Shown piece after piece: positions 4,216 through 23,462 of a stretch of 45,005 nucleotides of DNA. Under the pieces are notes generated by a model, which was not told where the DNA came from, did not search any database, and saw only the letters and a list, made by a program, of their open reading frames with translations. Numbering within the stretch: position 1 is the stretch's first letter; the number at the start of each line of letters is the position of its first letter. Made by a program: the position numbers and the translations under genes. The stretch is taken from IMG/VR virus record IMGVR_UViG_2778261502_000007, positions 1-45,005 of that record, one strand, 5' to 3'. The stretch is from a virus. Taxonomy: Duplodnaviria; Heunggongvirae; Uroviricota; Caudoviricetes.

Positions 4216-4482
4216 TTTTTCTAATGCCTCTTCGACATGATAATTATATGGTTGTAGTGACCTGAAATCTGCAATTGCATCAGCCAGGTTTCGTGCCATT
4301 ACGGCTGGCGCGATTTTTTTTGCTGCTGATACCCGGCTGGCGAGTTCCAGTGCGAGACGTGCCTGCCCTGGAGTTAACTCTCTTTCCTTTGCCATTGTTG
4401 ATGCCTGTACAGACAATTCATACGCCAGACAAAATACAGCATTATTCGTTTCTAGCGGATCAATACCCTGAGTAAATGTCAT
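4177..4482 (-). CDS. Hypothetical acidic 101 aa protein, first gene downstream of OL-like operators
   Basis: Track ORF 4177..4527; ATG at 4482 (MTFTQGIDPLETNNAVF...) preceded by GGGGAGAG; no Arg-rich motif. Confidence 0.5.
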   Translation of the reverse strand: MTFTQGIDPLETNNAVFCLAYELSVQASTMAKERELTPGQARLALELASRVSAAKKIAPAVMARNLADAIADFRSLQPYNYHVEEALEKLIAAADAIIDEL

Positions 4483-10549: not shown

Positions 10550-10679
10550 AAACGATTTGCGGGAAAAGGATAGTTAAGTAGAATTGCTGCGGGTGCTTGA
10601 GGCTGTCTGCCTCGGGCATGCCACTGTAAGGCAGACAGAGAAAAGCCCCAGTTAACATTACGCGTCCGGCAAGACGCTT

Positions 10680-10760
10680 AACATTAATCTGAGGCCAATT
10701 TCATGCTTTGCACATGTAGGTTAGCCTCTTACGCGCCGGAAGGCAAGGAGAAGCAGGCTA
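10680..10760 (-). ncRNA. Sok-like antisense RNA (approximate)
   Basis: Inferred from hok family organisation only; boundaries not determined. Confidence 0.3.
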
Positions 10761-10915
10761 TGAAGCAGCAAAAGGCGATGTTAATCGCCCTGATCGTCAT
10801 CTGTTTAACCGTCATAGTGACGGCACTGGTAACGAGGAAAGACCTCTGCGAGGTACGAATCCGAACCGGCCAGACGGAGGTCGCTGTCTTCACAGCTTAC
10901 GAATCTGAGGAGTAA
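10760..10915 (+). CDS. hok: Hok/Gef-family type I toxin (51 aa)
   Basis: MKQQKAMLIALIVICLTVIVTALVTRKDLCEVRIRTGQTEVAVFTAYESEE; in-frame upstream leader from 10703; structured 5' region with 9 bp inverted repeat CTGTCTGCC...GGCAGACAG. Confidence 0.85.
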   Translation: MKQQKAMLIALIVICLTVIVTALVTRKDLCEVRIRTGQTEVAVFTAYESEE

Positions 10916-13141: not shown

Positions 13142-13217
<76 letters not shown>

Positions 13218-13220
13218 TAT

Positions 13221-13295
<75 letters not shown>

Positions 13296-13660
13296 GCAAA
13301 ACAAATGAGGTATAGGTTTTTCAGCACTGGCGTTTTTTTCGCGGGAAAGGTCTCGTATATCCTTTATCGCTCTCCCGAATTATAATGGAGACCAGTTATG
13401 ATTTCGGTGCTGTGTTTTTTGATACTATCGGAATAGTGCATTATTGGTGGGATTTTTTTGATGTTTCCTGGCAGGGGCTGATTATGCACTATCCCGATGT
13501 TATTAACATCACAAAATGAGGTGAGCCCCATGTGCGGGGGTGGTTTAAGTGGTTGTTTAGCGGGGAAACTACAGTATCTGATGGTATGTCAGGTATTTCG
13601 GGAGGCACCCGACACCTCACCTATATTATAATAATACTCTTCAGCACTTACTGATTTGAC

Positions 13661-13688
13661 CACCGCCTTAACAGGCGGTTTTTTTTCG
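13661..13688 (+). terminator. Intrinsic terminator
   Basis: CCGCC-TTAACA-GGCGG plus T8. Confidence 0.5.
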
Positions 13689-13859
13689 GTAATTTGCAGA
13701 ATTGTACGCTGAATAAGCATTACATCGTTAAATTTATAACTTATTCCGAATATGCGGTGCTTGCTTATTGTTAGCTTGCTGACATTTCTGTATCTTGCTG
13801 CGCCGCAGGTTTCCCCTGTAACGACGCTTGTATGATGAATCATTTAAACTTTGTAATTT

Positions 13860-13891
13860 GCCAGCCAGTCTCTGGTGGCTGGCTTTTTTTT
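13860..13891 (+). terminator. Intrinsic terminator
   Basis: GCCAGCCA-loop-TGGCTGGC plus T8. Confidence 0.55.
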
Positions 13892-13945
13892 GCAAGGTGT
13901 TCTGATAGTTCTGTTCGTCAGACTGGATTCCCGCAGAACAAAAAG

Positions 13946-14027
13946 CCGTCACTAACTCATTGGGTAAGAGTGCATAACACATATTGTTGTTTTGTGGTGC
14001 GGGGTTCGAGTCCCCGGTGACGGTCCA
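13946..14027 (+). other. tRNA-like element (tRNA remnant or atypical tRNA)
   Basis: Canonical acceptor CCGTCAC/GTGACGG, T-arm CGGGG-TTCGAGT-CCCCG and 3' TCCA, but anticodon arm does not fold canonically. Confidence 0.3.
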
Positions 14028-14054
14028 CTTGTAATGGTAAATATACTTTTAACA

Positions 14055-14077
14055 GGCTCGCTTCGGTGAGCTTTTTG
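14055..14077 (+). terminator. Hairpin with UUCG tetraloop and T-run
   Basis: GGCTCGC-TTCG-GTGAGCT then TTTTT. Confidence 0.4.
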
Positions 14078-14110
14078 TATGAGTTCAATCCGGTTTATAT
14101 TGGCGAAAAA

Positions 14111-14148
14111 GGGCGCGGCTGTCGGATTAAAGCCGCGGGACAAAGTCC
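14111..14148 (+). repeat. Structured motif copy A
   Basis: GCGGCT-GTCGGATTAA-AGCCGC then GGAC-AAA-GTCC; followed by ATG at 14149. Confidence 0.5.
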
Positions 14149-15010
14149 ATGAAGAAGAATAAGTATCTGCCTCCTTCAGGAGACATGTTTATACTACTAA
14201 GCATTTAGAATGGTTTAAATCCTCAGATTAACCTTAATTTCAGATAAGGCTTATTTCATTTTTTCGCGCACACCCGGCGCACATCAAAAACCACATAACC
14301 TTTCAGGGGTGAGCTTACGGGATGATCAGTGTGACTTGAGCTGGTCACTCCGGGCGGAGGCTCATCCACTAAAAGGAAACGTCACGATGTTTGGGATTTT
14401 CAAAAGAAAACCCGTAAGCCCATTGTTGAAATAAAGATGATGGAAAACTACGTGATAATGGGCGGCCGGTGGGTGTTTTCATGTGGCAAGAATCATTTTT
14501 CAGATTATTACAGTTGAAGTGATTTTATTCCTTGTTATTATACACCTGTCTTCTGGGAGAGTTATCTTATTCCCCGATAAGAATCCATATGAAGAGTAAA
14601 AATCGTTCAGGAAACAGGATCGCTGATTTGTAATTGGCTAGTCAGTGGCTGGAATCGCTCTGGCAGTAGATGAGACTCACTTATATTAAGCACTGACGCT
14701 TTATTCGTGGTAAGTTTTCGTAACTGTCGCTTTTTGTTTTGTAATAAAAACAAAACATCACGGTGTTGGTGTTGTTATTTTACAATAGCGGGATGGTGTA
14801 TTTTCGGTAGAAATGTTGTGTTTCTTTGGAGAGTCGGAAATACATCATTCCGGTGTTGTAAATAACACCAAAGAGATGTTTCCCGGTATGAGAGTGGTTT
14901 ACATTGTTGCTTTTGGAACCACAATATCTGGCATAAAGTCAGATATTCAGGGAAGTCCACAACATCTCAATTTCACTACAATAAAAATGATTCATCTTCA
15001 GCATTGTTCA

Positions 15011-15036
15011 ACCGCCGCACTAGGCGGTTTTTTTTG
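15011..15036 (+). terminator. Intrinsic terminator
   Basis: ACCGCC-GCACTA-GGCGGT plus T9. Confidence 0.55.
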
Positions 15037-15120
15037 TGTTGAATTCAAAAAAATACACGGACACTGATAATGTCCGTGTGGCAATGCCATGTAAGTCAAC
15101 GATGAATATGACACAAAAAA

Positions 15121-15157
15121 AACGCGACCGTCGGATTAAGGTCGCTGGACAAAGTCC
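15121..15157 (+). repeat. Structured motif copy B (compensatory stem changes)
   Basis: GCGACC-GTCGGATTAA-GGTCGC then GGAC-AAA-GTCC; followed by GTG at 15158. Confidence 0.5.
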
Positions 15158-15397
15158 GTGAAGCATAACGAATTTCCGTTCCTCCCCCCGTTCGGGAAGT
15201 GCAAAAAGTATATAAATTAATTTTTCTCGTTTAAACAGGAAAGTTAATCTGAATTTCTGGTAATCCTTATTCCCGTACATTAATTCTTCGCTTTTCATAT
15301 CAGACTATGTCACACAAAAGGCATTTGCGGATTCCTTCGATGGGATGTTGTTTTTTACGGGCCGCTGGTGGCCTTTTTTATTTACAGGAGAAAAAGT

Positions 15398-15787
15398 ATG
15401 TCTGAACCCTTATCCGGTTCCGGCACGGCTGCGGCGCTCGGCGGGGCGACGGTATTCGGGCTCTTTACCGGAACGGATTTCGGGATTGTGTTTGGTGCGT
15501 TCGCCGGGGCGTTATTTGTGGCAACGATACCGCAGCAGCTTTCAGCCTGGCGGATAGCGGCGCATTTTCTGGTGTCGTTCATTATCGGCGTGCTGGGGGC
15601 AGAGGTTCTGGCATCCTGGCTGGTCAGGCATACAGAGTTTGACGGTGCACCTGTCGATGCATTGTGTGCAGTGCTGGTGTCAGTGGTGTCGGTGAAGATT
15701 CTGTCGTTCATCCACCAGCAGGATATCGCATCACTGGTGTCCGGCCTGTTCTCCCGCCAGCGGGGTGGGGGAGGCGGCAATGCCTGA
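15398..15787 (+). CDS. Holin-like multi-TM membrane protein (129 aa)
   Basis: ATG 15398 after AGGAG; several Gly/Ala-rich hydrophobic segments; first gene of lysis cassette. Confidence 0.5.
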   Translation: MSEPLSGSGTAAALGGATVFGLFTGTDFGIVFGAFAGALFVATIPQQLSAWRIAAHFLVSFIIGVLGAEVLASWLVRHTEFDGAPVDALCAVLVSVVSVKILSFIHQQDIASLVSGLFSRQRGGGGGNA

Positions 15788-16058
15788 TAACCTTTCTGGA
15801 TTGCTGAATGTAGCGTTATGCACGGTTATCGTGTTGACGCTTTTTTTTTATCGTCGTCATGATTCCAGACATAAACCGCTGATGTCATGGCTGGCTTGGC
15901 TGCTGATGCTGCTTTATGCCCTTGCGCCACTCAGCTATCTGTGTGGTCGTCTGTTAGCGGCGAACTGGCTGGTGGTGTTTTTTAATCTGCTGTTCTGCGT
16001 GCTGGTGATACGTGCACGTGGGAATGTTTCAAAAATCCTTGCATTACGAAGGTACTGA
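15780..16058 (+). CDS. Second holin/antiholin-like membrane protein (92 aa)
   Basis: ATG 15780 after GGAGG; three hydrophobic segments; overlaps neighbours. Confidence 0.5.
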   Translation: MPDNLSGLLNVALCTVIVLTLFFYRRHDSRHKPLMSWLAWLLMLLYALAPLSYLCGRLLAANWLVVFFNLLFCVLVIRARGNVSKILALRRY

Positions 16059-16059
16059 A

Positions 16060-16605
16060 ATGAAGTCGAAAGATGAAATTTTTGACGAAGTTCTGGGAAA
16101 AGAGGGCGGTTACGTCAACCATCCGGATGATAAAGGTGGTCCGACCAAATGGGGCATTACTGAAAAAGTCGCCCGGGCGCACGGATATCAGGGCGATATG
16201 CGTGACCTGACGCGCGGGCAGGCGCTGGAAATACTCGAGGCGGATTACTGGTACGGCCCACGTTTTGACCAGGTGGCAAATTTGTCCCCGGATATTGCCG
16301 CAGAGCTGTGCGACACAGGCGTGAACATGGGACCAACTGTGGCGTCCAGAATGCTTCAACGCTGGCTGAACGTTTTCAACCTGCGCGGGAAACTGTATCC
16401 GGATATGGATGCAGACGGACGTATCGGCCCACGGACTATTAATGCGTTACGGGCATATCTGAAAAATCGCGGCAGAGATGGAGAGTTGGTAATGCTGACC
16501 GCACTGAACTGTACGCAGGGGGACCGCTATCTGGAACTGGCAGAGAGACGGGAGGCCAACGAGTCGTTTGTCTACGGCTGGATGAAAGAGCGCGTGGCAG
16601 TTTAA
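16060..16605 (+). CDS. Endolysin, GH108-type muramidase-like
   Basis: Motif EGGYVNHPDDKGGPTKWGIT typical of GH108 N-terminus as recalled; position after holins. Confidence 0.65.
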   Translation: MKSKDEIFDEVLGKEGGYVNHPDDKGGPTKWGITEKVARAHGYQGDMRDLTRGQALEILEADYWYGPRFDQVANLSPDIAAELCDTGVNMGPTVASRMLQRWLNVFNLRGKLYPDMDADGRIGPRTINALRAYLKNRGRDGELVMLTALNCTQGDRYLELAERREANESFVYGWMKERVAV

Positions 16606-16704
16606 AAACTGACGCTGAAGTGCTGAACACCCTCAACTTATTTCGGCTCTATTCTGAATTTACGATGGGCAAAAGTCAGGGTAATGGCGTCAGATGGCAA
16701 AAAG

Positions 16705-16745
16705 CAAAAACCCCGGCTGCGGTAACAGTCCGGGGTTTTCTGTTT
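16705..16745 (+). terminator. Intrinsic terminator
   Basis: CCCCGG-loop-CCGGGG followed by TTTTCTGTTT. Confidence 0.5.
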
Positions 16746-16772
16746 CTGGCCTTGGGTAAGGCAAAGGAAAAC

Positions 16773-16955
16773 ATGAGGAATTATAAACTAATTCTGTTGA
16801 GGTTGACTATGAAAAACGGCCTTGAATTGAAAGCGCCTGTAACTGATGACATCAGCAGAGCGGTGGCTTTTGCCATTAAGTGGGTGGCTGTCGGTATCGC
16901 TGTGTCTCCGATGCTGTATGGGCTGGCAAAATTGATCGTTGCGCTGAAATCGTGA
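16773..16955 (+). CDS. Small membrane protein (60 aa; alternative start 16809)
   Basis: Internal starts of track ORF 16620..16955, both with SD; C-terminal hydrophobic helix. Confidence 0.4.
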   Translation: MRNYKLILLRLTMKNGLELKAPVTDDISRAVAFAIKWVAVGIAVSPMLYGLAKLIVALKS

Positions 16956-16977
16956 GTGGGGGAATTAAGGGGTAAAT

Positions 16978-17112
16978 ATGTCAGACAGCATTATAAAACT
17001 GGCGCGGATTCTCTGTGTGGTTGTTGGTCTTTCATTTTCAGCAATGTTGGTTGCTATTTTCATTTCCACCGCCTGGCGAGTATTGAGCTTATCCGGGTTG
17101 ATTGGTGGATAG
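16978..17112 (+). CDS. Small single-TM protein (44 aa)
   Basis: ATG after AAGGGG; MSDSIIKLARILCVVVGLSFSAMLVAIFISTAWRVL...; below track cutoff. Confidence 0.4.
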   Translation: MSDSIIKLARILCVVVGLSFSAMLVAIFISTAWRVLSLSGLIGG

Positions 17113-17116
17113 CGAG

Positions 17117-17299
17117 ATGAAGCGGAAGCACTGGACACACAGAATGCCACGAACGGCGGCGAAATGGGCACTGGTAGCGATACTGGTGCCTTTTTTATTG
17201 GTGGGATGCGTCAGCCTGGATAAGGCGCGCCAGCTTTTCGATACAGCTTCTCAGGTCTGTGAAATTGTCGACGGTGTTCGGCAGTGTATGCAGAACTGA
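17117..17299 (+). CDS. Small lipoprotein (60 aa)
   Basis: Signal peptide with lipobox LLVGC; two further Cys in mature part; not proline-rich. Confidence 0.5.
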   Translation: MKRKHWTHRMPRTAAKWALVAILVPFLLVGCVSLDKARQLFDTASQVCEIVDGVRQCMQN

Positions 17300-17473: not shown

Positions 17474-17581
17474 ATGTGGAAACCTACTGGTGACAAGTTA
17501 ATCACCGCATTGATTGACGGCAAGCCACAATACTTACGCATTGAAATGAGCGGTCAGCATACTCGTTTGATTCGTGAGTAA
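17474..17581 (+). CDS. Small 35 aa protein
   Basis: ATG after AGGAG; MWKPTGDKLITALIDGKPQYLRIEMSGQHTRLIRE. Confidence 0.3.
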   Translation: MWKPTGDKLITALIDGKPQYLRIEMSGQHTRLIRE

Positions 17582-17704: not shown

Positions 17705-18493
17705 ATGAGCGAGAAATTGAAGATCGTCTATCGCCCGTTACAAGAACTGTCTCCGTATGCACACAATGCCAGGACACACAGCCCTGAGCAGGTGGCACAA
17801 CTGGTAGAAAGCATTAAGCAATTCGGCTGGACTAATCCGGTGCTGATTGATGAAAAGGGCGAAATTATTGCTGGTCACGGTCGCGTTATGGCGGCTGAAG
17901 TGTTCAGAATGGATTCCGTTCCGGTCATCGTTCTGTCAGGTCTGACGGATGATCAGAAAAAGGCGTACCGCCTGGCAGATAATCGCCTGCCGATGAATGC
18001 TGGCTGGGATGAAGATCTGTTACGGATGGAGCTGTCGGAGCTAATCAATGCTGATTTTGATATTTCCCTGACAGGATTCAGCCCGACAGAAATTGATGAA
18101 CTGTTGACGGATATTTTGCCAGGTACAGGAAATGAGGAGGAACCGTACACGACGAAAATTGATACGCCTGTTTATGAGCCGTCAGGCGATAAACCGGATA
18201 TCAGTGAACTGTACGACGATACGAAAACTCAGGAGCTGATCAGCCGGATACGTTCGGCGTCCCTTGATCCTGATATCGAAAAATTCCTCCTGTGCGCGGC
18301 AGAACGCCACACGGTGTTTAATTTCAGCAGAATTGCGGATTATTACGCTCACGCCCCCGCTGAAATTCAGCACCTTTTTGAGGAGTCGGCGCTGGTGATC
18401 ATTGATTACCAGCAGGCTATTGAAAATGGATTTGTCCGGATGACGCAGCACATGGTGGAGATCATGCATGGCGGGGAGGAGGAATATGCGTGA
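17705..18493 (+). CDS. ParB N-terminal-domain (ParB/Srx-like) protein
   Basis: ...NPVLIDEKGEIIAGHGRVMAAEV... matches ParB box pattern; acidic C-terminal half. Confidence 0.65.
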   Translation: MSEKLKIVYRPLQELSPYAHNARTHSPEQVAQLVESIKQFGWTNPVLIDEKGEIIAGHGRVMAAEVFRMDSVPVIVLSGLTDDQKKAYRLADNRLPMNAGWDEDLLRMELSELINADFDISLTGFSPTEIDELLTDILPGTGNEEEPYTTKIDTPVYEPSGDKPDISELYDDTKTQELISRIRSASLDPDIEKFLLCAAERHTVFNFSRIADYYAHAPAEIQHLFEESALVIIDYQQAIENGFVRMTQHMVEIMHGGEEEYA

Positions 18494-19418
18494 TGATTTT
18501 TGCGCCTTTATTCTGACTCACGGGCGACCGGACAAAGTTCTGACTTACCGGACGTTGCGTCGTGCTGGCTATACCGGGAAAATTTTTATCGTTGTTGATG
18601 ATGAAGATAAGACACGGCATCAGTACATAGCTGATTTTGGTGAACAGGTGCTGGTGTTTTCCAAAGCCGATATCGCCAGTCGTTTTGACGAAGCCGATAA
18701 TTTCGGTGACCGCCGCTCAATTTTTTACGCCCGTAATGCCTGTTTCGACCTGGCAAAACTGGTCGGGTGTAAATACTTCATTCAGCTCGATGATGATTAT
18801 CACGAGTTCCAGTTTCGGGTGGATCGCAACTATGACCAGGCCTATTTTCCGATAAGGAAACTGGATGCGATCCTTTCTGAAATGCTGGCGTATTACGAAT
18901 CAATACCCGCGCTTTCCATCGCTATGTCGCAGGGCGGGGATTTTCTTGGTGACAATGGCGCTCATGCTTCATGGGTGAAACGTAAGGCAATGAACAGCTT
19001 TATCTGTTCGGTTGACCGACCGTTCTCATTCATGGGACGCATTAACGAGGATGTGAATACGTACACGAATCTCGGTCGCCGTGGAGAATTGTTTATGACG
19101 ATCGGTGCTGTCCAGTTAGGGCAGAAACAGACGCAGAAAAACAGTGGCGGAATGACCGAGCTGTATCTGGATTCCGGAACCTACGTTAAAAGTTTTTACT
19201 CCGTCATGTATGCACCGTCATGCGTAAAAATCTCACTGATGGGCGCCAGCCATAAACGCATTCACCACCAGGTCACCTGGAACAACGCTGCAGTAAAAAT
19301 TCTTCACGAAAAATACAGGAAGAAGACACCCTGCATATCAATGGGGGTGACAAATGATTCCGTATTCGAAAGTCGAGTCTCTGGCAGCGTGCCGGATGAC
19401 TGCACAACAAATCGCTGA
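18486..19418 (+). CDS. GT-A-fold-like protein with DxD motif (possible glycosyltransferase)
   Basis: FILTHGRPDKVL...IFIVVDDED and YFIQLDDDYHEF fit GT-A beta-alpha-beta plus DxD pattern; no TM segments; start taken from track ORF 18468 codon offsets. Confidence 0.4.
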   Translation: MRDDFCAFILTHGRPDKVLTYRTLRRAGYTGKIFIVVDDEDKTRHQYIADFGEQVLVFSKADIASRFDEADNFGDRRSIFYARNACFDLAKLVGCKYFIQLDDDYHEFQFRVDRNYDQAYFPIRKLDAILSEMLAYYESIPALSIAMSQGGDFLGDNGAHASWVKRKAMNSFICSVDRPFSFMGRINEDVNTYTNLGRRGELFMTIGAVQLGQKQTQKNSGGMTELYLDSGTYVKSFYSVMYAPSCVKISLMGASHKRIHHQVTWNNAAVKILHEKYRKKTPCISMGVTNDSVFESRVSGSVPDDCTTNR

Positions 19419-19608: not shown

Positions 19609-20691
19609 ATGAGCAGACCGGACTGGGGGGCGTTGCAGCAGGAGTATATTGCTGAATACACCCGCTCCGGTATATCTCCGGTGGCATGGTGTGAAGCAAG
19701 GGGACTGAATTACGCAACAGCCCGTCGTTACATCAAAAAACCTCCGAAAAATGCGCAGGCAGAAGTGCGCAAAACTGCGCAAAAAGGTGCGCAAAAGAAA
19801 ACTGCGCAAAAGCGAACCGGCAAAACGGGGAAGGAAAAATCCAGAGTGGTTGTTTCTCCCGTTGCAGGAAATGATCAGGAAATTTTATTCAATCCCGATG
19901 AATTCGGCATCTCAGAGCAGCAGACGAAATTTGCGATGCTGGTTGCACAGGGGAGAAAACTCGTTGAGGCATATCGCCTGGCAGGATACGAGTCAGAGGG
20001 GAATGCGGCCTACGTAACTGCCAGCCAGCTCCTAAGAAATCCTAAGGTTTATCGGGCTATCTCATGGTTCCGCAATCAGTACCAGAAACGCTATACCGCA
20101 GACCTGGATTTACTGGTGAGTCAGTTGATGGCCATTGTCCAGGCCGACCCCAATCAGTTAGCACAATTTCGCCGTGTTAACTGCCGTTATTGCTGGGGCG
20201 AGAATCATCTCTACCAGTGGCGCGATATAGCAGAATTTGATAAGGCAGCGGCGCAGGCTTCCAGAGATGGCAAACCCGAACCGGAATATGGAGGCCTTGG
20301 CTTTGTTGATAACGCCATACCCAATCCGGACTGCCCGAAGTGCTGCGGTGAGGGAACGGGGCAGCTTTATATGGCTGATACCACTCTGCTTGATGGGGAT
20401 GCACGGCAATTATATGCAGGGGCAAAGCTCGGGAAATTTGGTGTTGAGATCCTGCTGGAGGATAAGTCTGCCGCCCGGCGCGAACTTATCAAGCTGATAA
20501 TGGCGACGAAAGGAAGTTCTGCTGGTGGTGCAACTGACAGTCGCAATGATCTGGAGCTTGAAGGACTGAGGCTTCGCAATGAAAAGCTGCGCACTGAGAT
20601 TGAAAACCTCAAAAAAGGCGTGGGTGGTGAGAATAACGAAATAATTATCCACAACTCTCTGCCGATGCCGGGAGTGGATAATGTCGATTGA
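19609..20691 (+). CDS. Terminase small subunit-like
   Basis: N-terminal HTH GISPVAWCEARGLNYATARRYIKK, basic linker, coiled-coil; overlaps terminase large subunit start. Confidence 0.55.
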   Translation: MSRPDWGALQQEYIAEYTRSGISPVAWCEARGLNYATARRYIKKPPKNAQAEVRKTAQKGAQKKTAQKRTGKTGKEKSRVVVSPVAGNDQEILFNPDEFGISEQQTKFAMLVAQGRKLVEAYRLAGYESEGNAAYVTASQLLRNPKVYRAISWFRNQYQKRYTADLDLLVSQLMAIVQADPNQLAQFRRVNCRYCWGENHLYQWRDIAEFDKAAAQASRDGKPEPEYGGLGFVDNAIPNPDCPKCCGEGTGQLYMADTTLLDGDARQLYAGAKLGKFGVEILLEDKSAARRELIKLIMATKGSSAGGATDSRNDLELEGLRLRNEKLRTEIENLKKGVGGENNEIIIHNSLPMPGVDNVD

Positions 20692-22009
20692 AATCTACCT
20701 CCCAAAACCTCATGAGGGGCAAATAGCTGCATGGACGGCGGCAATAGAGGAACGCTTCCACGCGGTATGCTGTGGTCGTCGCTGGGGTAAAACGGTGATG
20801 CTGGTGAATATCGCTACCAGTTTCGCGACGCGGAAATTTGCCGTTCCTACCACCGGGCAGCTTATCGCGGGTAGGGTGGGGATTTTTACCGCACAATACC
20901 GCCAGTACCAGGAAATCTGGGATGAAATTAGCGCCGTTCTGCAACCGCTGATCCTCAGCCAGTCAAAAAATGAAAAGCGCATCATTCTCCGTAATGGGGG
21001 GCGCATCGACTTTTGGGTAACGGACAATAACAAACTGGCCGGGCGTGGGCGTAAGTATCACGCTGTGCTGATTGATGAGGCCGCATTCACTAAATCGCCG
21101 GAAATGCTCGAGGAAATCTGGCCCCGCGCTATACGCCCGACGCTTGTCGATTACCGTGGCTGTGCCTGGGTATTTTCCACACCAAACGGTATCGACGAGA
21201 GCAATTTTTTCTACGCGATATGCCACGATGAATCCCTGGGATTTGTCATGCACCATGCGCCAACTTCATCGAATCCGTATATTCCGAAAGAAGAACTGGA
21301 GGAAACGGAGAAGAAATCCGATCCGCGCGTATGGCAGCAGGAATATCTTGCCGAGTTCGTGGACTGGTCCAAAGACGCGTTACTTGATGTCGATAAGCTG
21401 CTGGTGGATGGTCAGCCGGTTGACATGCCGCCGCACTGCGACATGATTTTCGCAGTGATGGATACGGCACTGAAAGGCGGGACCGAAAATGACGGTACAG
21501 GCGTGGTGTATTTCGCCTGGGAGTCAACATATTCGGACGAGCCAAAACTGACGATTATTGACTGGGATGTGACGCAAATTAAAGCGTCATTGCTTCCTGA
21601 GTATATCCCCGGTGTTTATGACAACCTCGAACGCCTGGCGAAATTATGCCGTCCGCGTCTGGGCAGCCAGGGAATTTTTATGGAAGACGCTGCGATGGGG
21701 GCGATCCTCAACCAGAAAGCGGAAACCGAAGGCTGGGATATGACGCCGATTAAATCGGCACTAACCAGCAAAGGCAAAGACGAACGGGCGGTGATGGCAT
21801 CCGGATATCACTATCAGGGGATGTGCAAAATCGTCCGGGAGGCTTACGACAAGACCGTTTCATTCAAACGCACCACTGCAAACCACCTCATTAAACAAAT
21901 CGCCGGGTTCCACCTGGCAGACAAAGACGCGCATAAACGTGCTGATGACCTTTTCGATTGTTATACCTACGGATTGATCATCGCGCACGGTAATTACGCG
22001 GCGTTGTAA
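20681..22009 (+). CDS. Terminase large subunit
   Basis: Walker A-like CCGRRWGKT, Walker B VLIDEAAF, C-terminal nuclease-like acidic residues. Confidence 0.75.
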   Translation: MSIEIYLPKPHEGQIAAWTAAIEERFHAVCCGRRWGKTVMLVNIATSFATRKFAVPTTGQLIAGRVGIFTAQYRQYQEIWDEISAVLQPLILSQSKNEKRIILRNGGRIDFWVTDNNKLAGRGRKYHAVLIDEAAFTKSPEMLEEIWPRAIRPTLVDYRGCAWVFSTPNGIDESNFFYAICHDESLGFVMHHAPTSSNPYIPKEELEETEKKSDPRVWQQEYLAEFVDWSKDALLDVDKLLVDGQPVDMPPHCDMIFAVMDTALKGGTENDGTGVVYFAWESTYSDEPKLTIIDWDVTQIKASLLPEYIPGVYDNLERLAKLCRPRLGSQGIFMEDAAMGAILNQKAETEGWDMTPIKSALTSKGKDERAVMASGYHYQGMCKIVREAYDKTVSFKRTTANHLIKQIAGFHLADKDAHKRADDLFDCYTYGLIIAHGNYAAL

Positions 22010-22022
22010 AAATCAGGATATT

Positions 22023-23462
22023 TTGATGGCAGAGATCGAGATTACTGGCGGCCTCGATTCAGCACTGATGCGTATTCTTGAGGCTGAAGAAATTCAGCCG
22101 GGAACCGATATCGGCTATGAATTGTGTAAGCTGCTGTGGCAATTCCATCCTCTGGGCGGAAAACTTGTCGAAAAACCCATACTGATGGCGATGTGTAAAC
22201 CGCGGCAGTATAACGTGGAGACAGACCCTGACGAGAGGGTTGTACGGCGTTTCCAGGAAGTATGGGAACGTATGAAGGTTAACGAGAAGATTAAAAATCT
22301 GTTTTTTTTGTCTCGTTGCTACGGTGCCGCAGCGATCGGCGTGGGCACCGACAGTGTTTCATGTCGAGAGCCGCTTCCGACATTCGGACTGACAGAAGAG
22401 GATGTGTATATCAACGCGTGGGATCCGTTGAACGCTTCCGGTTCGATGGTGACTGACCAGAACCCAAACAGCCCGTTTTTCCAGGAAGCCAATAAAAAGC
22501 TGAAGATTGGCGGAAAAGACTGGCATCCGTCGCGCACACTTAAAATCTTCAACGGCACACCGATTTATCTGGAGTTTCAGAGTTCAACGTTCGGATTCAC
22601 CGGGCGAAGCGTGTTTCAGCGAGTTCTTTATTCCCTGAAATCCTATATCAATACGATGGAGGCGAATGATCTCGTCAGCCAGAAGGCAGGCGTACTGGTG
22701 GCTAAAGTTGTGCAGAACAGTTCGAAAATTGACGGGATCATGGCTGCTGCCACGGGGCGTAAAAGGGAAAACGTGAAAGCCGCCAAAAATAAAGGCGTGT
22801 TGAGTATTGGAAAAGACGAAGACGTAAGTTCACTGAACCTGCAAAACATCGACGGGGCGCTGAATACTGCCCGCGACAACATCATTGCTGATATTGCCGC
22901 CGGGAGTGATGTTCCGGCCATTATTATCAAGGAAGAAGCGTTCAGTAACGGATTCGGTGAAGGTAAGGAGGACTCGAAAGCCATCAGCCAGTATATCGAT
23001 GGTGTGCGCCAGCAGATTGAGCCTGTGATGGATTATTTCGAACGCCTGGTGCAGTACATCGCCTGGAACGAGGAATTTTATCAGTCGCTGAAAAATGATT
23101 ACCCGGACATTATAACCGACGACTATAAAACCACGTTTTACCAGTGGCGACGTGAATTTACCGCGACGTGGCAGGAGCTGGTGGAGGAGTCGCCGGACAA
23201 ACGCCGGGAAAGCGACAGTAAAGTGATTCAACAGGCGATAGCACTTTTCTCTGCCGTGTCGCCACAGGTTGATCCTGAAAACCGCGCCGCCCTCGCTGAA
23301 TGGCTGGCAAGCCTTGTTAATGCCACGCAAACCTATGGCGAAGCTCCACTCATCATTGATGTGGACGCGCTGGCGAATTATGAACCACCGAAGCAGGAGA
23401 CGCCTGATGGCAATTTCCAGCCGGGCGGTGAGGAAGAAGAAACGGATCAGGACGCTGTATGA
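22023..23462 (+). CDS. Portal protein (putative)
   Basis: 479 aa directly after terminase large subunit; acidic C-terminus. Confidence 0.5.
   Translation: MMAEIEITGGLDSALMRILEAEEIQPGTDIGYELCKLLWQFHPLGGKLVEKPILMAMCKPRQYNVETDPDERVVRRFQEVWERMKVNEKIKNLFFLSRCYGAAAIGVGTDSVSCREPLPTFGLTEEDVYINAWDPLNASGSMVTDQNPNSPFFQEANKKLKIGGKDWHPSRTLKIFNGTPIYLEFQSSTFGFTGRSVFQRVLYSLKSYINTMEANDLVSQKAGVLVAKVVQNSSKIDGIMAAATGRKRENVKAAKNKGVLSIGKDEDVSSLNLQNIDGALNTARDNIIADIAAGSDVPAIIIKEEAFSNGFGEGKEDSKAISQYIDGVRQQIEPVMDYFERLVQYIAWNEEFYQSLKNDYPDIITDDYKTTFYQWRREFTATWQELVEESPDKRRESDSKVIQQAIALFSAVSPQVDPENRAALAEWLASLVNATQTYGEAPLIIDVDALANYEPPKQETPDGNFQPGGEEEETDQDAV

What the first reader, a model, noticed from the sequence alone, without database searches (positions are those of the whole stretch)
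16773..17299. Non-canonical genes after the endolysin: two small membrane proteins and a non-proline-rich lipoprotein
Where an i-spanin/o-spanin pair is expected there are two short single-TM proteins (60 and 44 aa) and a 60 aa lipoprotein with lipobox LLVGC and two further Cys. Neither matches the usual Rz (long periplasmic coiled coil) or Rz1 (Pro-rich) pattern. This could be an unusual spanin arrangement or a lysogen-expressed exclusion lipoprotein.
Basis: partly seen in the sequence, partly recalled or inferred. Interest (0 to 1): 0.4.

Follow-up and report, generated by a model that had tools for sequence, protein, structure and literature searches.

The report
Partnerless mini-lipoprotein in a phage lysis cassette
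Where this E. coli prophage should carry the two-protein "spanin" that breaks the outer membrane at lysis, it has only a conserved 30-residue outer-membrane lipoprotein with no inner-membrane partner, preceded by a mobile pair of tiny membrane-protein genes that also sits next to ordinary spanins in other phages.

Summary
Three small genes follow the GH108 endolysin: A (16773-16955, 60 aa), B (16978-17112, 44 aa) and lipoprotein C (17117-17299, 60 aa). All match PHROG families of unknown function and show purifying selection.

They form two separable modules.

C is the invariant last gene of the phiP27/Rac-type lysis cassette. In 78 of 78 related loci it lies downstream of an M15 or GH108 endolysin, and in 33 it follows directly or overlaps. 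It never co-occurs with Rz/Rz1. It is the only lipobox ORF in the 45-kb window. Kongari et al. 2018 already listed its phiP27 orthologue as a singleton "o-spanin". The i-spanin they paired with it looks spurious, and no i-spanin-like ORF lies near C in 88 loci. The mature peptide is 30 residues, helical, Pro-free, with two conserved Cys, too short for a periplasm-spanning complex.

A and B are a portable insert that also sits between lysozyme R and canonical Rz in O157/Stx prophages, so they are not C's i-spanin. The insert carries a sar-like antisense RNA over A's ribosome-binding site.

Best reading: C is a partnerless outer-membrane-disruption lipoprotein, and A/B are accessory genes of unknown function. 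This is inference only.

The parts
15398..15787 (+). Holin-family gene 1 (Phage_holin_8, multi-TM). First gene of the phiP27/Rac-type lysis cassette.
   Evidence: Pfam PF16931 at 3.5e-23 and phrog_198 holin at 1.4e-42. The start is set at the ATG of MSEPLSG, by analogy with the PGAP calls in relatives.
15780..16058 (+). Holin-family gene 2 (3-TM Phage_holin_3_7).
   Evidence: Pfam PF05449 at 2.8e-20 and phrog_217 holin at 5.6e-36. Three hydrophobic segments.
16060..16605 (+). Soluble endolysin (GH108 muramidase plus PG_binding_3). No signal-anchor (SAR) domain.
   Evidence: PF05838 at 1.6e-26 and PF09374 at 4.1e-26. No TM segment in the hydropathy scan. Replaced by an M15 peptidase in many relatives.
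16707..16739 (.). G+C-rich hairpin (AAAACCCCGG / CCGGGGTTTT) with T-runs on both strands. It looks like a bidirectional intrinsic terminator. It marks the left edge of the A/B insert and forms the 3' hairpin of the antisense RNA.
   Evidence: Read from the sequence. The minus-strand fold is -32.5 kcal/mol, z = -4.8. Conserved, with stem-preserving variants, in 36 unique A-upstream regions. Homology to O157 prophages begins here.
16703..16776 (-). sar-like cis-antisense RNA covering the Shine-Dalgarno and start codon of gene A.
   Evidence: Rfam RF00262 (sar RNA): full model 1-68, 24.3 bits, below the gathering score of 43. E = 0.0087 in a 300-nt search and 0.086 in a 3-kb search. The loop CUGUUACCGCAG is identical to the sar consensus. 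The ends agree with the independently found promoter-like site and terminator.
16780..16809 (-). Sigma-70 promoter-like site (TAGTCA, 18-nt spacer, TATAAT) inside the first codons of A, pointing leftwards. Putative promoter of the antisense RNA.
   Evidence: 10 of 12 consensus match. The -10 box (TATAAT or TATACT) and its spacing are kept in both the A and the diverged A-like families, which have TGGACA, 18 nt, TATACT. Promoter-like sites are not significantly enriched in the region as a whole: 6 found against 3.4 expected.
16773..16955 (+). Gene A: 60-aa small membrane protein with a basic N-terminal 30 residues and a hydrophobic C-terminal half. Part of the portable A/B insert.
   Evidence: phrog_1115 at 3.5e-40. 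pN/pS is 0.26 overall and 0.03 for codons 13-30. The ATG and AAGGAG Shine-Dalgarno are conserved. Found between R and Rz in O157/Stx-type prophages.
16978..17112 (+). Gene B: 44-aa single-pass membrane protein, always immediately upstream of the outer-membrane-disruption gene (Rz or C).
   Evidence: phrog_4906 at 1.6e-19. TM at residues 11-29, score 2.81. pN/pS is 0.12 overall and 0.07 for the C-terminal tail. Present in 276 phage records, mostly Stx phages. It is ORF50, just before Rz, in BP-4795.
17117..17299 (+). Gene C: 60-aa prolipoprotein. It has a 30-aa signal peptide with a conserved basic, His-rich N-region, lipobox LVGC and Val at +2. The mature peptide is a 30-aa amphipathic helix with conserved Cys18 and Cys27. 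Proposed outer-membrane-disruption component.
   Evidence: phrog_7528 at 2.1e-38. Only lipobox ORF in the window. Lipobox and three Cys conserved in about 95 distinct mature sequences. 78 of 78 loci have an endolysin upstream. Mutually exclusive with Rz. AlphaFold gives a helix over residues 12-59 at pLDDT 68. Hydrophobic moment 0.53, p = 0.04. The phiP27 orthologue was called an o-spanin by Kongari 2018.

Best explanation
The interval holds two independent modules.

**(1) Gene C is the last, invariant gene of the phiP27/Rac-type lysis cassette.** The cassette is two holin-family proteins, a soluble M15 or GH108 endolysin, and C.
- C is made as a 60-aa prolipoprotein from the late lysis transcript and is translationally coupled to the gene before it.
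- After lipidation at Cys31 and signal-peptide cleavage, it is sorted to the inner leaflet of the outer membrane, because Val rather than Asp is at +2.
- There, a 30-residue amphipathic helix with two conserved Cys is tethered to the outer membrane.
- I infer that it performs the step Rz/Rz1 performs in lambdoid cassettes: destroying the outer membrane once the endolysin has removed the wall.
- It has no conserved inner-membrane partner and is far too short to cross the periplasm. It therefore cannot work as a canonical periplasm-spanning, membrane-fusing spanin.
- Most likely it destabilises the outer membrane from the outer-membrane side, through insertion or oligomerisation of the helix, perhaps disulfide-linked. 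A host or holin partner remains possible.

**(2) Genes A and B, with a sar-like antisense RNA gene, form a portable insert.** It lands between the endolysin and the outer-membrane-disruption gene of otherwise unrelated lysis cassettes.
- They are accessory small inner-membrane proteins and not C's i-spanin.
- A's translation is probably held down by the antisense RNA, which suggests A is harmful if made at the wrong time.
- Their role may be lysis-timing modulation or something unrelated. It is not established.

**Shown:** gene reality, lipoprotein features, synteny, mutual exclusivity with Rz, absence of an i-spanin, and the modular structure.
**Inferred:** late expression, outer-membrane localisation, the lysis role, and the outer-membrane-only mechanism.
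For: **Position and linkage**
- C lies downstream of an endolysin in 78 of 78 loci with enough upstream DNA. The endolysin may be M15 or GH108. In Lelliottia the holin is of a different type.
- In 33 loci C follows directly. Junctions include ATGA stop/start overlaps with the endolysin or with whatever gene is inserted before C.
- Mosaic breakpoints fall exactly at C's ATG (hit H23).

**Equivalence with Rz/Rz1**
- The same A+B insert, and ant-type inserts, lie between endolysin and Rz in lambdoid phages and between endolysin and C here.
- Among the 80 A-containing loci, 44 continue into Rz and 36 into C. None has both.
- No Rz hit occurs in any of the 88 C loci.

**No other spanin**
- C is the only lipobox ORF in 45 kb, and the window has no i-spanin-like ORF. 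There is none within 3 kb of C in 88 loci.
- PGAP annotates no spanin in the closest complete prophage.
- Pinto et al. 2021 found Rz in 277 of 279 Stx phages. The metallopeptidase-endolysin pham occurs in only two phages and its cluster C excludes the SAR endolysins. I read the two Rz-less phages as this cluster, which the paper does not state outright (PMC8136144).

**Lipoprotein features under selection**
- Lipobox, mature length of 30, and Cys18/Cys27 are conserved. pN/pS is 0.17-0.20.
- The mature part is helical and amphipathic.

**The published i-spanin is spurious**
- The 64-aa TTG ORF in phiP27 is antisense to a 90-aa ORF. That 90-aa ORF stays intact in the diverged relative L073, while the 'i-spanin' frame breaks down to 36 aa.

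**The A/B module**
- pN/pS values, occurrence in 276 phage records and the sar-like RNA.
Against: - No experiment bears on C, A or B, and every PHROG family involved is 'unknown function'.
- Position in a lysis cassette is also typical of morons. Lambda bor, for example, lies next to Rz.
- A 30-residue, slightly acidic lipopeptide (net charge -1) has no precedent as a stand-alone outer-membrane disruptor. The known spanin substitute (the phiKT gp28 peptide, called 'disruptin' in the 2019 preprint) is cationic and unlipidated.
- An inner-membrane partner could be one of the two 'holins', a host protein, or a gene outside the regions examined.
- The strongly conserved basic N-region of the signal peptide is not explained by this model.
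- The AlphaFold model is only moderately confident (pLDDT 68).
- The sar match is below Rfam's gathering score.
- In the window a terminator-like hairpin lies between the endolysin and A/B/C, so co-transcription requires read-through or antitermination, which I assume rather than show.
Confidence: 0.5

Rival explanations
1. C is a conventional two-component o-spanin with a dedicated i-spanin partner. The partner would be A or B or the 64-aa ORF that Kongari et al. paired with it in phiP27. The complex would bridge the inner and outer membranes and fuse them.
For: - Kongari et al. 2018 list phiP27 as a 'separated' two-component spanin.
- An A-family gene lies just upstream of C in 38 of 78 loci, sometimes with its stop codon abutting C's ATG.
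- Kongari et al. note that C-terminally anchored inner-membrane proteins could in principle serve as i-spanins.
- C has the Cys residues typical of disulfide-linked spanins.
Against: - 33 of 78 loci have nothing between the endolysin and C, and no TM ORF after it.
- A and B accompany fully canonical Rz/Rz1 in 44 of 80 loci.
- A has essentially no residues beyond its hydrophobic segment, and B has at most about 15.
- With C's 30 residues that gives about 4.5 nm as helix or about 10 nm fully extended. Neither reaches across a periplasm of roughly 20 nm or more (established knowledge).
- The phiP27 'i-spanin' ORF is not conserved and lies antisense to a conserved ORF.
- In the parts of Kongari's tables I saw, its 32-residue periplasmic part is the shortest listed.
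Confidence: 0.1
2. C is a moron-type lipoprotein carried at the end of the lysis cassette that does not take part in lysis. Examples would be a superinfection-exclusion or receptor-masking lipoprotein (Cor/Llp-like) or a host-fitness factor (Bor-like). The phage would then be genuinely spanin-less and breach the outer membrane some other way.
For: - Small prophage lipoproteins with such roles are well known (Cor, Llp, Bor; my own knowledge).
- About 13% of phages of Gram-negative hosts had no recognisable spanin in Kongari's survey.
- C has no sequence relation to any spanin family.
- The slot between endolysin and terminase is clearly a hot spot for cargo such as ant, KilA-N, A/B, L31 and L33.
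Against: - C is the one constant gene in a slot where everything else varies.
- It is translationally coupled to the preceding late gene and has no promoter-like site or terminator of its own.
- It is strictly mutually exclusive with Rz/Rz1. That fits a functional replacement and is not expected for an unrelated moron.
- From my own knowledge, known exclusion lipoproteins sit beside tail or receptor-binding genes, not endolysins.
- No PADLOC hit.
Confidence: 0.22
3. C works like a colicin lysis protein (bacteriocin release protein). On this view a very small lipoprotein, together with its stable signal peptide, perturbs the envelope and activates outer-membrane phospholipase A (PldA), making the outer membrane leaky.
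For: - Similar size class. As I recall, bacteriocin release proteins have a mature part of about 28 residues, against 30 here.
- The 30-residue signal peptide, including its N-region, is conserved at the protein level at least as strongly as the mature part. pN/pS is 0.16 for codons 1-12 with pS 0.38. This recalls the functional, stable signal peptide of bacteriocin release proteins (my own knowledge, not tested here).
Against: - No hit to Pfam Lysis_col at E <= 0.1.
- The exhaustive profile search finds only C's own narrow family.
- As I recall, mature bacteriocin release proteins are not predicted to be helical and lack extra Cys, unlike C. This was not tested here.
- The gene context is a phage lysis cassette, not a colicin operon.
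- This is a purely analogical idea.
Confidence: 0.08
4. A (or B) with the antisense RNA is a type I toxin-antitoxin-like or otherwise self-contained module, such as an addiction or abortive-infection element. It would have nothing to do with lysis and would merely use the endolysin/spanin junction as a safe insertion site.
For: - The layout matches type I TA systems and P22 sar/ant: a small hydrophobic protein with a cis-antisense RNA over its ribosome-binding site.
- The module moves as a unit between unrelated cassettes.
- A bona fide hok/sok lies elsewhere in the same prophage, so such elements do occur here.
Against: - No similarity to any known type I toxin family in Pfam or NCBIfam, and none in PADLOC.
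- The insert has always been found at one specific site, just upstream of the outer-membrane-disruption gene, on the late-transcript strand and without a sense promoter of its own.
- B also occurs without A, directly before Rz, in hundreds of Stx phages.
Confidence: 0.25

Closest known systems
Two-component spanin o-subunit (lambda Rz1 type). The phiP27 orthologue of C is listed as a singleton 'separated o-spanin' in Kongari et al. 2018 (PMC6139136).
   Same: - Outer-membrane-type lipoprotein signal.
- Encoded after the endolysin in the lysis cassette.
- Small, with periplasmic Cys residues.
- Mutually exclusive with Rz/Rz1 and in the same slot.
   Different: - No cognate i-spanin in most loci, and the published one looks spurious.
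- Mature part is only 30 residues, predicted helical and without Pro, whereas Rz1 is Pro-rich and unstructured.
- No sequence relation beyond the signal peptide.
- Cannot span the periplasm.
Unimolecular spanin (T1 gp11 type)
   Same: A single gene in the spanin slot, with an N-terminal lipoprotein signal.
   Different: No C-terminal transmembrane domain and no long periplasmic beta-rich segment. C is 30 residues after processing, so it has an outer-membrane anchor only.
The phiKT gp28 peptide ('disruptin' in the 2019 preprint): a spanin-independent outer-membrane-disrupting peptide (bioRxiv 10.1101/515445)
   Same: If my reading is right, both are small amphipathic helical peptides that take the spanin's place and act on the outer membrane without bridging the envelope.
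   Different: gp28 is a cationic antimicrobial-peptide-like protein (abstract). As I recall, it has no lipid anchor. C is lipid-anchored with net charge -1 and conserved Cys. There is no sequence similarity.
Colicin lysis proteins / bacteriocin release proteins (Pfam Lysis_col)
   Same: Very small lipoproteins that permeabilise the envelope. In both, the signal peptide is more than a disposable leader: in bacteriocin release proteins it is stable and functional (my own knowledge), and in C it is conserved.
   Different: No sequence match. The mature peptide has a different character, and the genetic context differs. PldA dependence is untested.
P22 sar RNA / ant (Rfam RF00262), for the antisense element in front of gene A
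   Same: - About 70 nt long, transcribed from a promoter inside the 5' end of the target gene.
- Complementary to the target's ribosome-binding site.
- Ends in a hairpin whose loop CUGUUACCGCAG is identical to the sar consensus.
   Different: - Scores 24.3 bits, below the gathering score of 43, and the 5' hairpin is not matched.
- The target is a 60-aa membrane protein, not an antirepressor.
- It lies in a lysis cassette, not in immI.
- The ant inserts in related cassettes do not carry this hairpin.
Accessory small membrane proteins needed for lysis (Mu gp25 releasin; LambdaSo Lcc6), as possible analogues of A and B
   Same: Small single-pass membrane proteins, additional to holin, endolysin and spanin, with a demonstrated role in lysis in other phages.
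   Different: No sequence similarity is claimed. Lcc6 is encoded far from the lysis genes, and releasin serves SAR endolysins. Here the endolysin is soluble, and A/B occur with both SAR-type and soluble endolysins.

Membership tests
Two-component spanin, o-spanin subunit | Lipoprotein signal peptide with a lipobox and an outer-membrane sorting signal (no Asp at +2) | tested here: met
   The sequence is MKRKHWTHRMPRTAAKWALVAILVPFLLVG-C31, with Val at +2. The lipobox is conserved across the family.
Two-component spanin, o-spanin subunit | Encoded in the lysis cassette next to, within, or overlapping a cognate i-spanin gene (a type II inner-membrane protein with a periplasmic coiled-coil domain) | tested here: not met
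   C is in the lysis cassette (78 of 78 loci), but no i-spanin-like ORF lies within 3 kb in 88 loci and there is no Rz homologue. None exists in the window. The published phiP27 i-spanin ORF is not conserved.
Two-component spanin, o-spanin subunit | Combined periplasmic domains long enough to connect the inner and outer membranes | tested here: not met
   The mature part is 30 residues, about 4.5 nm as a helix. A and B add at most about 15 periplasmic residues. Kongari's own range starts at this case, with 62 residues including the doubtful partner.
Two-component spanin, o-spanin subunit | Sequence membership in a known o-spanin family (for example Pfam Rz1) | tested here: not met
   No Pfam or NCBIfam hit. 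hhalign against lambda Rz1 aligns only the signal peptide. The exhaustive profile search finds only 20 representatives, all of C's own family.
Two-component spanin, o-spanin subunit | Required for outer-membrane disruption: null mutants arrest as spherical cells in Mg2+, and the gene complements lambda RzamRz1am | not testable with these tools
   Needs wet-lab genetics.
Unimolecular spanin (T1 gp11 type) | N-terminal lipoprotein signal plus a C-terminal transmembrane domain in one polypeptide | tested here: not met
   The only hydrophobic segment of C is the signal peptide. The C-terminal 30 residues are amphipathic and polar.
Colicin lysis protein / bacteriocin release protein | Sequence match to Pfam Lysis_col and location at the 3' end of a colicin operon | tested here: not met
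   No Pfam hit at E <= 0.1. The context is a prophage lysis cassette.
Colicin lysis protein / bacteriocin release protein | PldA-dependent envelope permeabilisation and a stable signal peptide | not testable with these tools
   Only the conservation of the signal peptide is seen.
Prophage exclusion or fitness lipoproteins (Cor, Llp, Bor) | Sequence membership, or an own promoter with expression in the lysogen | tested here: not met
   No Pfam hit of any kind for C at E <= 0.1, so none to Lambda_Bor. No PADLOC hit. No promoter-like site upstream of C, and it is translationally coupled to the preceding gene. Expression itself was not measured.
phiKT gp28-type ('disruptin') outer-membrane-disrupting peptide | Cationic amphipathic peptide | tested here: not met
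   C is lipid-anchored with net charge -1. It is amphipathic, with a hydrophobic moment of 0.53.
sar RNA (Rfam RF00262) | Covariance-model score at or above the gathering threshold | tested here: not met
   24.3 bits against a gathering score of 43. The full model is matched and E = 0.0087 in a 300-nt search.
sar RNA (Rfam RF00262) | Roughly 70-nt cis-antisense transcript from a promoter inside the target gene's 5' end, covering its ribosome-binding site and ending in an intrinsic terminator | tested here: inconclusive
   The promoter-like site, terminator and match coordinates all agree, and they are conserved in 36 unique sequences. Transcription has not been demonstrated.
Type I toxin-antitoxin system (for gene A plus the antisense RNA) | Small hydrophobic toxin of a known family, repressed by an antisense RNA | tested here: inconclusive
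   The layout fits, but there is no match to any known toxin family. Toxicity is untested.

The most novel reading that the evidence does not exclude
[quoted passage not shown] On this reading a 30-residue, lipid-anchored, disulfide-capable amphipathic helix acts from the outer membrane alone, without any inner-membrane partner. It is present in about 6% of complete E. coli genomes, and its unusually conserved signal peptide may itself be functional. As a lesser point, the A/B/sar-like insert would be an antisense-controlled modulator of the last step of lysis, shared by Stx/O157 prophages.
Probability: 0.3. Interest if true: 0.72.

Novelty: new variant of a known kind. Interest (0 to 1): 0.5.

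Why it matters
How phages without a recognisable spanin breach the outer membrane is an open question in phage lysis. Kongari et al. found that about 13% of phages of Gram-negative hosts have none, and only one alternative, the phiKT gp28 peptide, has been worked out.

This cassette offers a tractable E. coli case.
- It has a single 183-bp gene in the spanin slot.
- The published classification of that gene as half of a two-component spanin does not survive comparative analysis.
- It can be tested directly in the existing lambda RzamRz1am complementation system.

The cassette occurs in Stx2e, Stx2k and LT-II toxin-converting phages and in Rac-type prophages, where lysis controls toxin release.

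The A/B insert is present in roughly a third of complete E. coli genomes, including O157:H7 Stx prophages, and has never been studied. An antisense RNA controlling a gene inside the lysis cassette would be a new layer of lysis regulation.

If C proves instead to be an ordinary moron, the phage becomes a genuine spanin-less case, which is also informative.

Tried and rejected
- **Family searches.** Pfam, NCBIfam and PADLOC gave nothing significant for A, B or C. The only sub-threshold hits (DUF3930, CBU_0592) were rejected as noise.
- **PDB sequence search with the C profile.** It returned only a designed helical repeat protein and a corrinoid protein, both meaningless.
- **hhalign of the C family against Lpp and lambda Rz1.** I had noticed a superficial Lpp-like C-x-S-x-x-K-x-x-Q-L start. 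Only the signal peptides align, so an Lpp-mimic idea has no support.
- **AlphaFold of C.** It gave one long helix at pLDDT 68. This was too featureless to justify a fold search, so none was run.
- **Exhaustive HMM search for remote relatives of C.** It found 20 representatives, all of the same narrow Enterobacterales family, with no bridge to any larger family.
- **Scan of GTDB genome contigs.** It gave only three loci. These were useful mainly for the Lelliottia case, which has a different holin.
- **Do the ant inserts of related cassettes carry the same sar-like hairpin?** They do not. The idea that A simply replaces ant behind a shared sar element was therefore dropped.
- **Tat signal idea for C's N-region.** The divergent subfamily has P-R-R, but the main family has a single Arg and no Tat consensus. 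Rejected on reading the alignment.
- **Alternative start of A at Met13.** Weak constraint on codons 1-12 (pN/pS 0.73) suggested it. The conserved ATG and strong Shine-Dalgarno at 16773, plus the overlap of those codons with the antisense promoter, favour the 60-aa form.
- **Literature.** I found no experimental work on any of the three genes.
Full report
**Setting**

The window is an almost complete Rac-type prophage of E. coli, related to phiP27.
- Its closest annotated relative lies next to ttcA and carries racR, ydaS/T and kilR.
- Its lysis region matches phiP27, phiSTEC1575-Stx2k, SerU-LTIIb and Rac-SA53.

The lysis cassette reads as follows:
- a Phage_holin_8 protein (15398-15787);
- a 3-TM Phage_holin_3_7 protein (15780-16058);
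- a soluble GH108 + PG_binding_3 endolysin (16060-16605).

**The observation**

- A is 16773-16955 (60 aa).
- B is 16978-17112 (44 aa).
- C is 17117-17299 (60 aa).

Each matches a PHROG family of unknown function: 3.5e-40, 1.6e-19 and 2.1e-38. None matches Pfam, NCBIfam or PADLOC.

Across dozens of distinct nucleotide versions, pN/pS is 0.26 for A, 0.12 for B and 0.20 for C. They are therefore real genes.

C has a textbook lipoprotein signal: basic N-region, hydrophobic core, L-V-G-C31, and Val at +2. The mature part is 30 residues with two further Cys. About 95 distinct mature sequences keep the lipobox, the length of 30 and all three Cys.

**C belongs to the lysis cassette, and nothing else in the slot does**

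I fetched 80 IMG/VR loci, three GTDB loci and several annotated phages that encode C.

All 78 loci with at least 1.3 kb upstream of C have an endolysin there, either an M15 peptidase or GH108. Their arrangements are:

| Arrangement | Loci |
|---|---|
| Endolysin directly followed by C (17-nt gap, or overlap) | 33 |
| Endolysin, A+B, C | 24 |
| Endolysin, a diverged A-like gene alone, C | 14 |
| Endolysin, other cargo (KilA-N/Ant-like, L31 and others), C | 7 |

- In Lelliottia the holin is of another family altogether, yet a 58%-identical C still overlaps the end of a GH108 gene.
- C's ATG is always tightly joined to the gene in front, including ATGA overlaps with the endolysin or with an ant-like insert.
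- A mosaic breakpoint in E. coli genomes falls exactly on C's start codon (H23).

C is thus the constant member of a slot in which everything else is exchangeable.

**C occupies the Rz/Rz1 slot and excludes Rz/Rz1**

The very same A+B insert is found in O157:H7 and other lambdoid prophages. There it lies between the SAR-type lysozyme R and a canonical Rz.

B alone sits just upstream of Rz, after an ant insert, in BP-4795. B is present in 276 phage records, mostly Stx phages.

Among the 80 best A-containing IMG/VR loci, 44 continue into Rz and 36 into C. None has both. No Rz homologue occurs in any of the 88 C loci.

**There is no canonical spanin**

- A scan of every possible start on both strands of the 45-kb window finds C as the only lipobox ORF.
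- A hydropathy scan finds no ORF with the i-spanin layout of one N-terminal TM followed by a periplasmic domain.
- The same scan within 3 kb of C in 88 loci returns only obviously spurious alternative-frame ORFs and StxB.
- Pinto et al. (PMC8136144) report Rz in 277 of 279 Stx phages. The metallopeptidase-endolysin pham occurs in two phages and is confined to cluster C. I take the two Rz-less phages to be these, which the paper does not say outright.

**What was already published, and a correction**

Kongari et al. 2018 (PMC6139136) list phiP27 as having a 'separated' two-component spanin.
- Both subunits are singletons.
- The combined periplasmic length of 62 residues is the shortest in their survey.
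- Their coordinates make the o-spanin the 51-aa form of C's orthologue (20706-20861).
- The i-spanin is a 64-aa ORF at 20348-20542.

That i-spanin ORF starts with TTG and is antisense to a 90-aa ORF. It is absent from all but one other locus. In that diverged relative (L073) the antisense 90-aa ORF stays intact at 46% identity, while the 'i-spanin' frame collapses to 36 aa. I conclude that the i-spanin call is spurious.

The 51-aa start is also unlikely. Codons 1-12 of the 60-aa form show abundant synonymous change (pS 0.38) but pN/pS of 0.16. M1, R3, H5, W6, H8, R9 and P11 are invariant in the core family. Met10 is missing in most members.

**What C can and cannot do**

- AlphaFold predicts one continuous helix through the signal peptide and the mature part, at moderate confidence (pLDDT 68). 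Kongari's Jpred table gives 25 of 30 mature residues as helical.
- The mature peptide is amphipathic (hydrophobic moment 0.53, p about 0.04 against shuffles). Its net charge is -1 and it has no Pro.
- Thirty residues make about 4.5 nm as a helix and about 10 nm fully extended. That is far short of the E. coli periplasm, which is about 20 nm or more (established knowledge).
- A has essentially nothing beyond its hydrophobic segment, and B has at most about 15 residues.

A periplasm-spanning, membrane-fusing complex of the Rz/Rz1 kind therefore cannot be built from these parts.

The family is tiny and isolated. An exhaustive profile search of 1.84 billion representatives gives 20 hits, all 44-111-aa relatives or fragments from Enterobacterales, plus two fusions. 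Profile comparison with Rz1 and Lpp aligns only the signal peptide.

C is found in 317 of 5426 complete E. coli genomes, with up to seven copies per genome.

**Most likely mechanism (inferred)**

C is made late with the endolysin, then lipidated and sorted to the outer membrane. Once the wall is gone it destabilises the outer membrane from that side. This could be by insertion or oligomerisation of the amphipathic helix, possibly disulfide-linked through Cys18/Cys27.

The evidence is positional equivalence, mutual exclusivity with Rz/Rz1, translational coupling, and the absence of any other candidate.

Two things keep confidence near 0.5. There is no experiment, and lysis-cassette ends are also favoured sites for morons.

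The protein-level conservation of the basic, His-rich N-region of the signal peptide is unexplained. It recalls the functional signal peptide of colicin release proteins, but that is only an analogy.

**A and B**

They move as a unit. Homology to O157 prophages runs from the hairpin at about 16700/16731 to the end of B.

In front of A lies a G+C-rich hairpin (16707-16739) with T-runs on both strands. Inside A's first codons, on the minus strand, is a promoter-like TAGTCA, 18 nt, TATAAT.

The minus-strand segment between them folds at -32.5 kcal/mol (z = -4.8). Rfam independently matches it end to end to sar RNA, the P22 antisense regulator of ant.
- The match runs 16776 to 16703 and covers model positions 1-68 of 68.
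- It scores 24.3 bits, below the gathering score of 43. E is 0.0087 in a 300-nt search.
- The hairpin loop is identical to the consensus and the stem shows compensated changes.

The promoter geometry and the hairpin are kept in 36 distinct upstream sequences. These include the diverged A-like family, which is only about 44% identical at the protein level.

A is therefore probably under antisense translational control, which suggests that untimely A is harmful. What A and B do is unknown. Precedents for extra small membrane proteins in lysis exist, namely Mu releasin and LambdaSo Lcc6. A self-contained type I TA-like element is a serious alternative.

**Verdict**

- The 'unusual spanin arrangement' reading is right in spirit for C and wrong for A and B.
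- The case is a new variant of a known kind: an o-spanin-like lysis lipoprotein without an i-spanin.
- It carries a useful correction to the published catalogue and a directly testable hypothesis.

Noticed in passing
window 16703-16809, minus strand: A sar-like cis-antisense RNA gene lies over the ribosome-binding site of gene A. It consists of a promoter-like site inside A's first codons and a bidirectional terminator hairpin. Rfam gives a full-length sar match below threshold (24.3 against 43 bits). The element is conserved in all A and A-like upstream regions examined.
   Followed up: partly
L001 (phiP27, NC_003356) 4278-4472 = record 20348-20542: The ORF that Kongari et al. 2018 list as the phiP27 i-spanin starts with TTG and is antisense to a conserved 90-aa ORF. 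In the diverged relative L073 it is broken while the antisense ORF stays intact. It is probably not a gene.
   Followed up: yes
window 17117-17152 (codons 1-12 of C): The N-region of C's signal peptide (M-x-R-K-H-W-T-H-R-x-P-R) is conserved at the protein level: invariant residues, pN/pS 0.16 despite pS 0.38. That is unusual for a signal-peptide N-region and I have no explanation for it.
   Followed up: partly
window 17705-19418: A ParB-N-domain protein (also similar to the N-terminal domain of phage DNA methyltransferases, and related to K-12 ynaK) overlaps a TET-associated glycosyltransferase (PF20691, 3e-35; phrog_842). They lie just before the terminase genes. No TET/JBP gene was noticed nearby. 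This may be a DNA-modification module.
   Followed up: no
window 17474-17581: A conserved 35-aa ORF (phrog_8025, 5.4e-22) lies downstream of C and is found at the same place in several related loci.
   Followed up: no
window 10591-10915: A hok/sok type I toxin-antitoxin locus: Rfam sok at 113.6 bits, and a Hok-like ORF ending at 10915. The relative annotates it as hokD.
   Followed up: no
window 13142-15350: tRNA-Thr and tRNA-Gly, plus a doubtful tRNA-Tyr(ata), are followed by about 2 kb of AT-rich DNA (GC 0.36-0.45) with no long ORF, just upstream of the holins. Relatives carry stx2e (phiP27) at this position. SerU-LTIIb carries a tRNA-Thr beside the same holin/endolysin genes, and its name suggests LT-IIb cargo, which I did not check. 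The segment may be an empty or decayed cargo site.
   Followed up: no
L032, L035, L040, L079, L088 and others, -175 to -2 relative to C: A diverged A-like gene (about 44% identical, C-terminus ...AVRWW) abuts C's start codon in 14 of 78 loci. It has no B and carries its own copy of the sar-like hairpin and promoter geometry.
   Followed up: partly
protein P0013 (E. coli), homologue of C: A natural variant of C has a tandem 10-residue duplication (QLFDTASQVC twice) in the mature helix, which adds a fourth Cys.
   Followed up: no
window about 22023-23462 (by homology to L089 23434-24870): PGAP annotates the gene after the large terminase in the closest relative as an 'anti-CBASS protein Acb1 family protein'. 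It sits where a portal gene would normally be expected.
   Followed up: no
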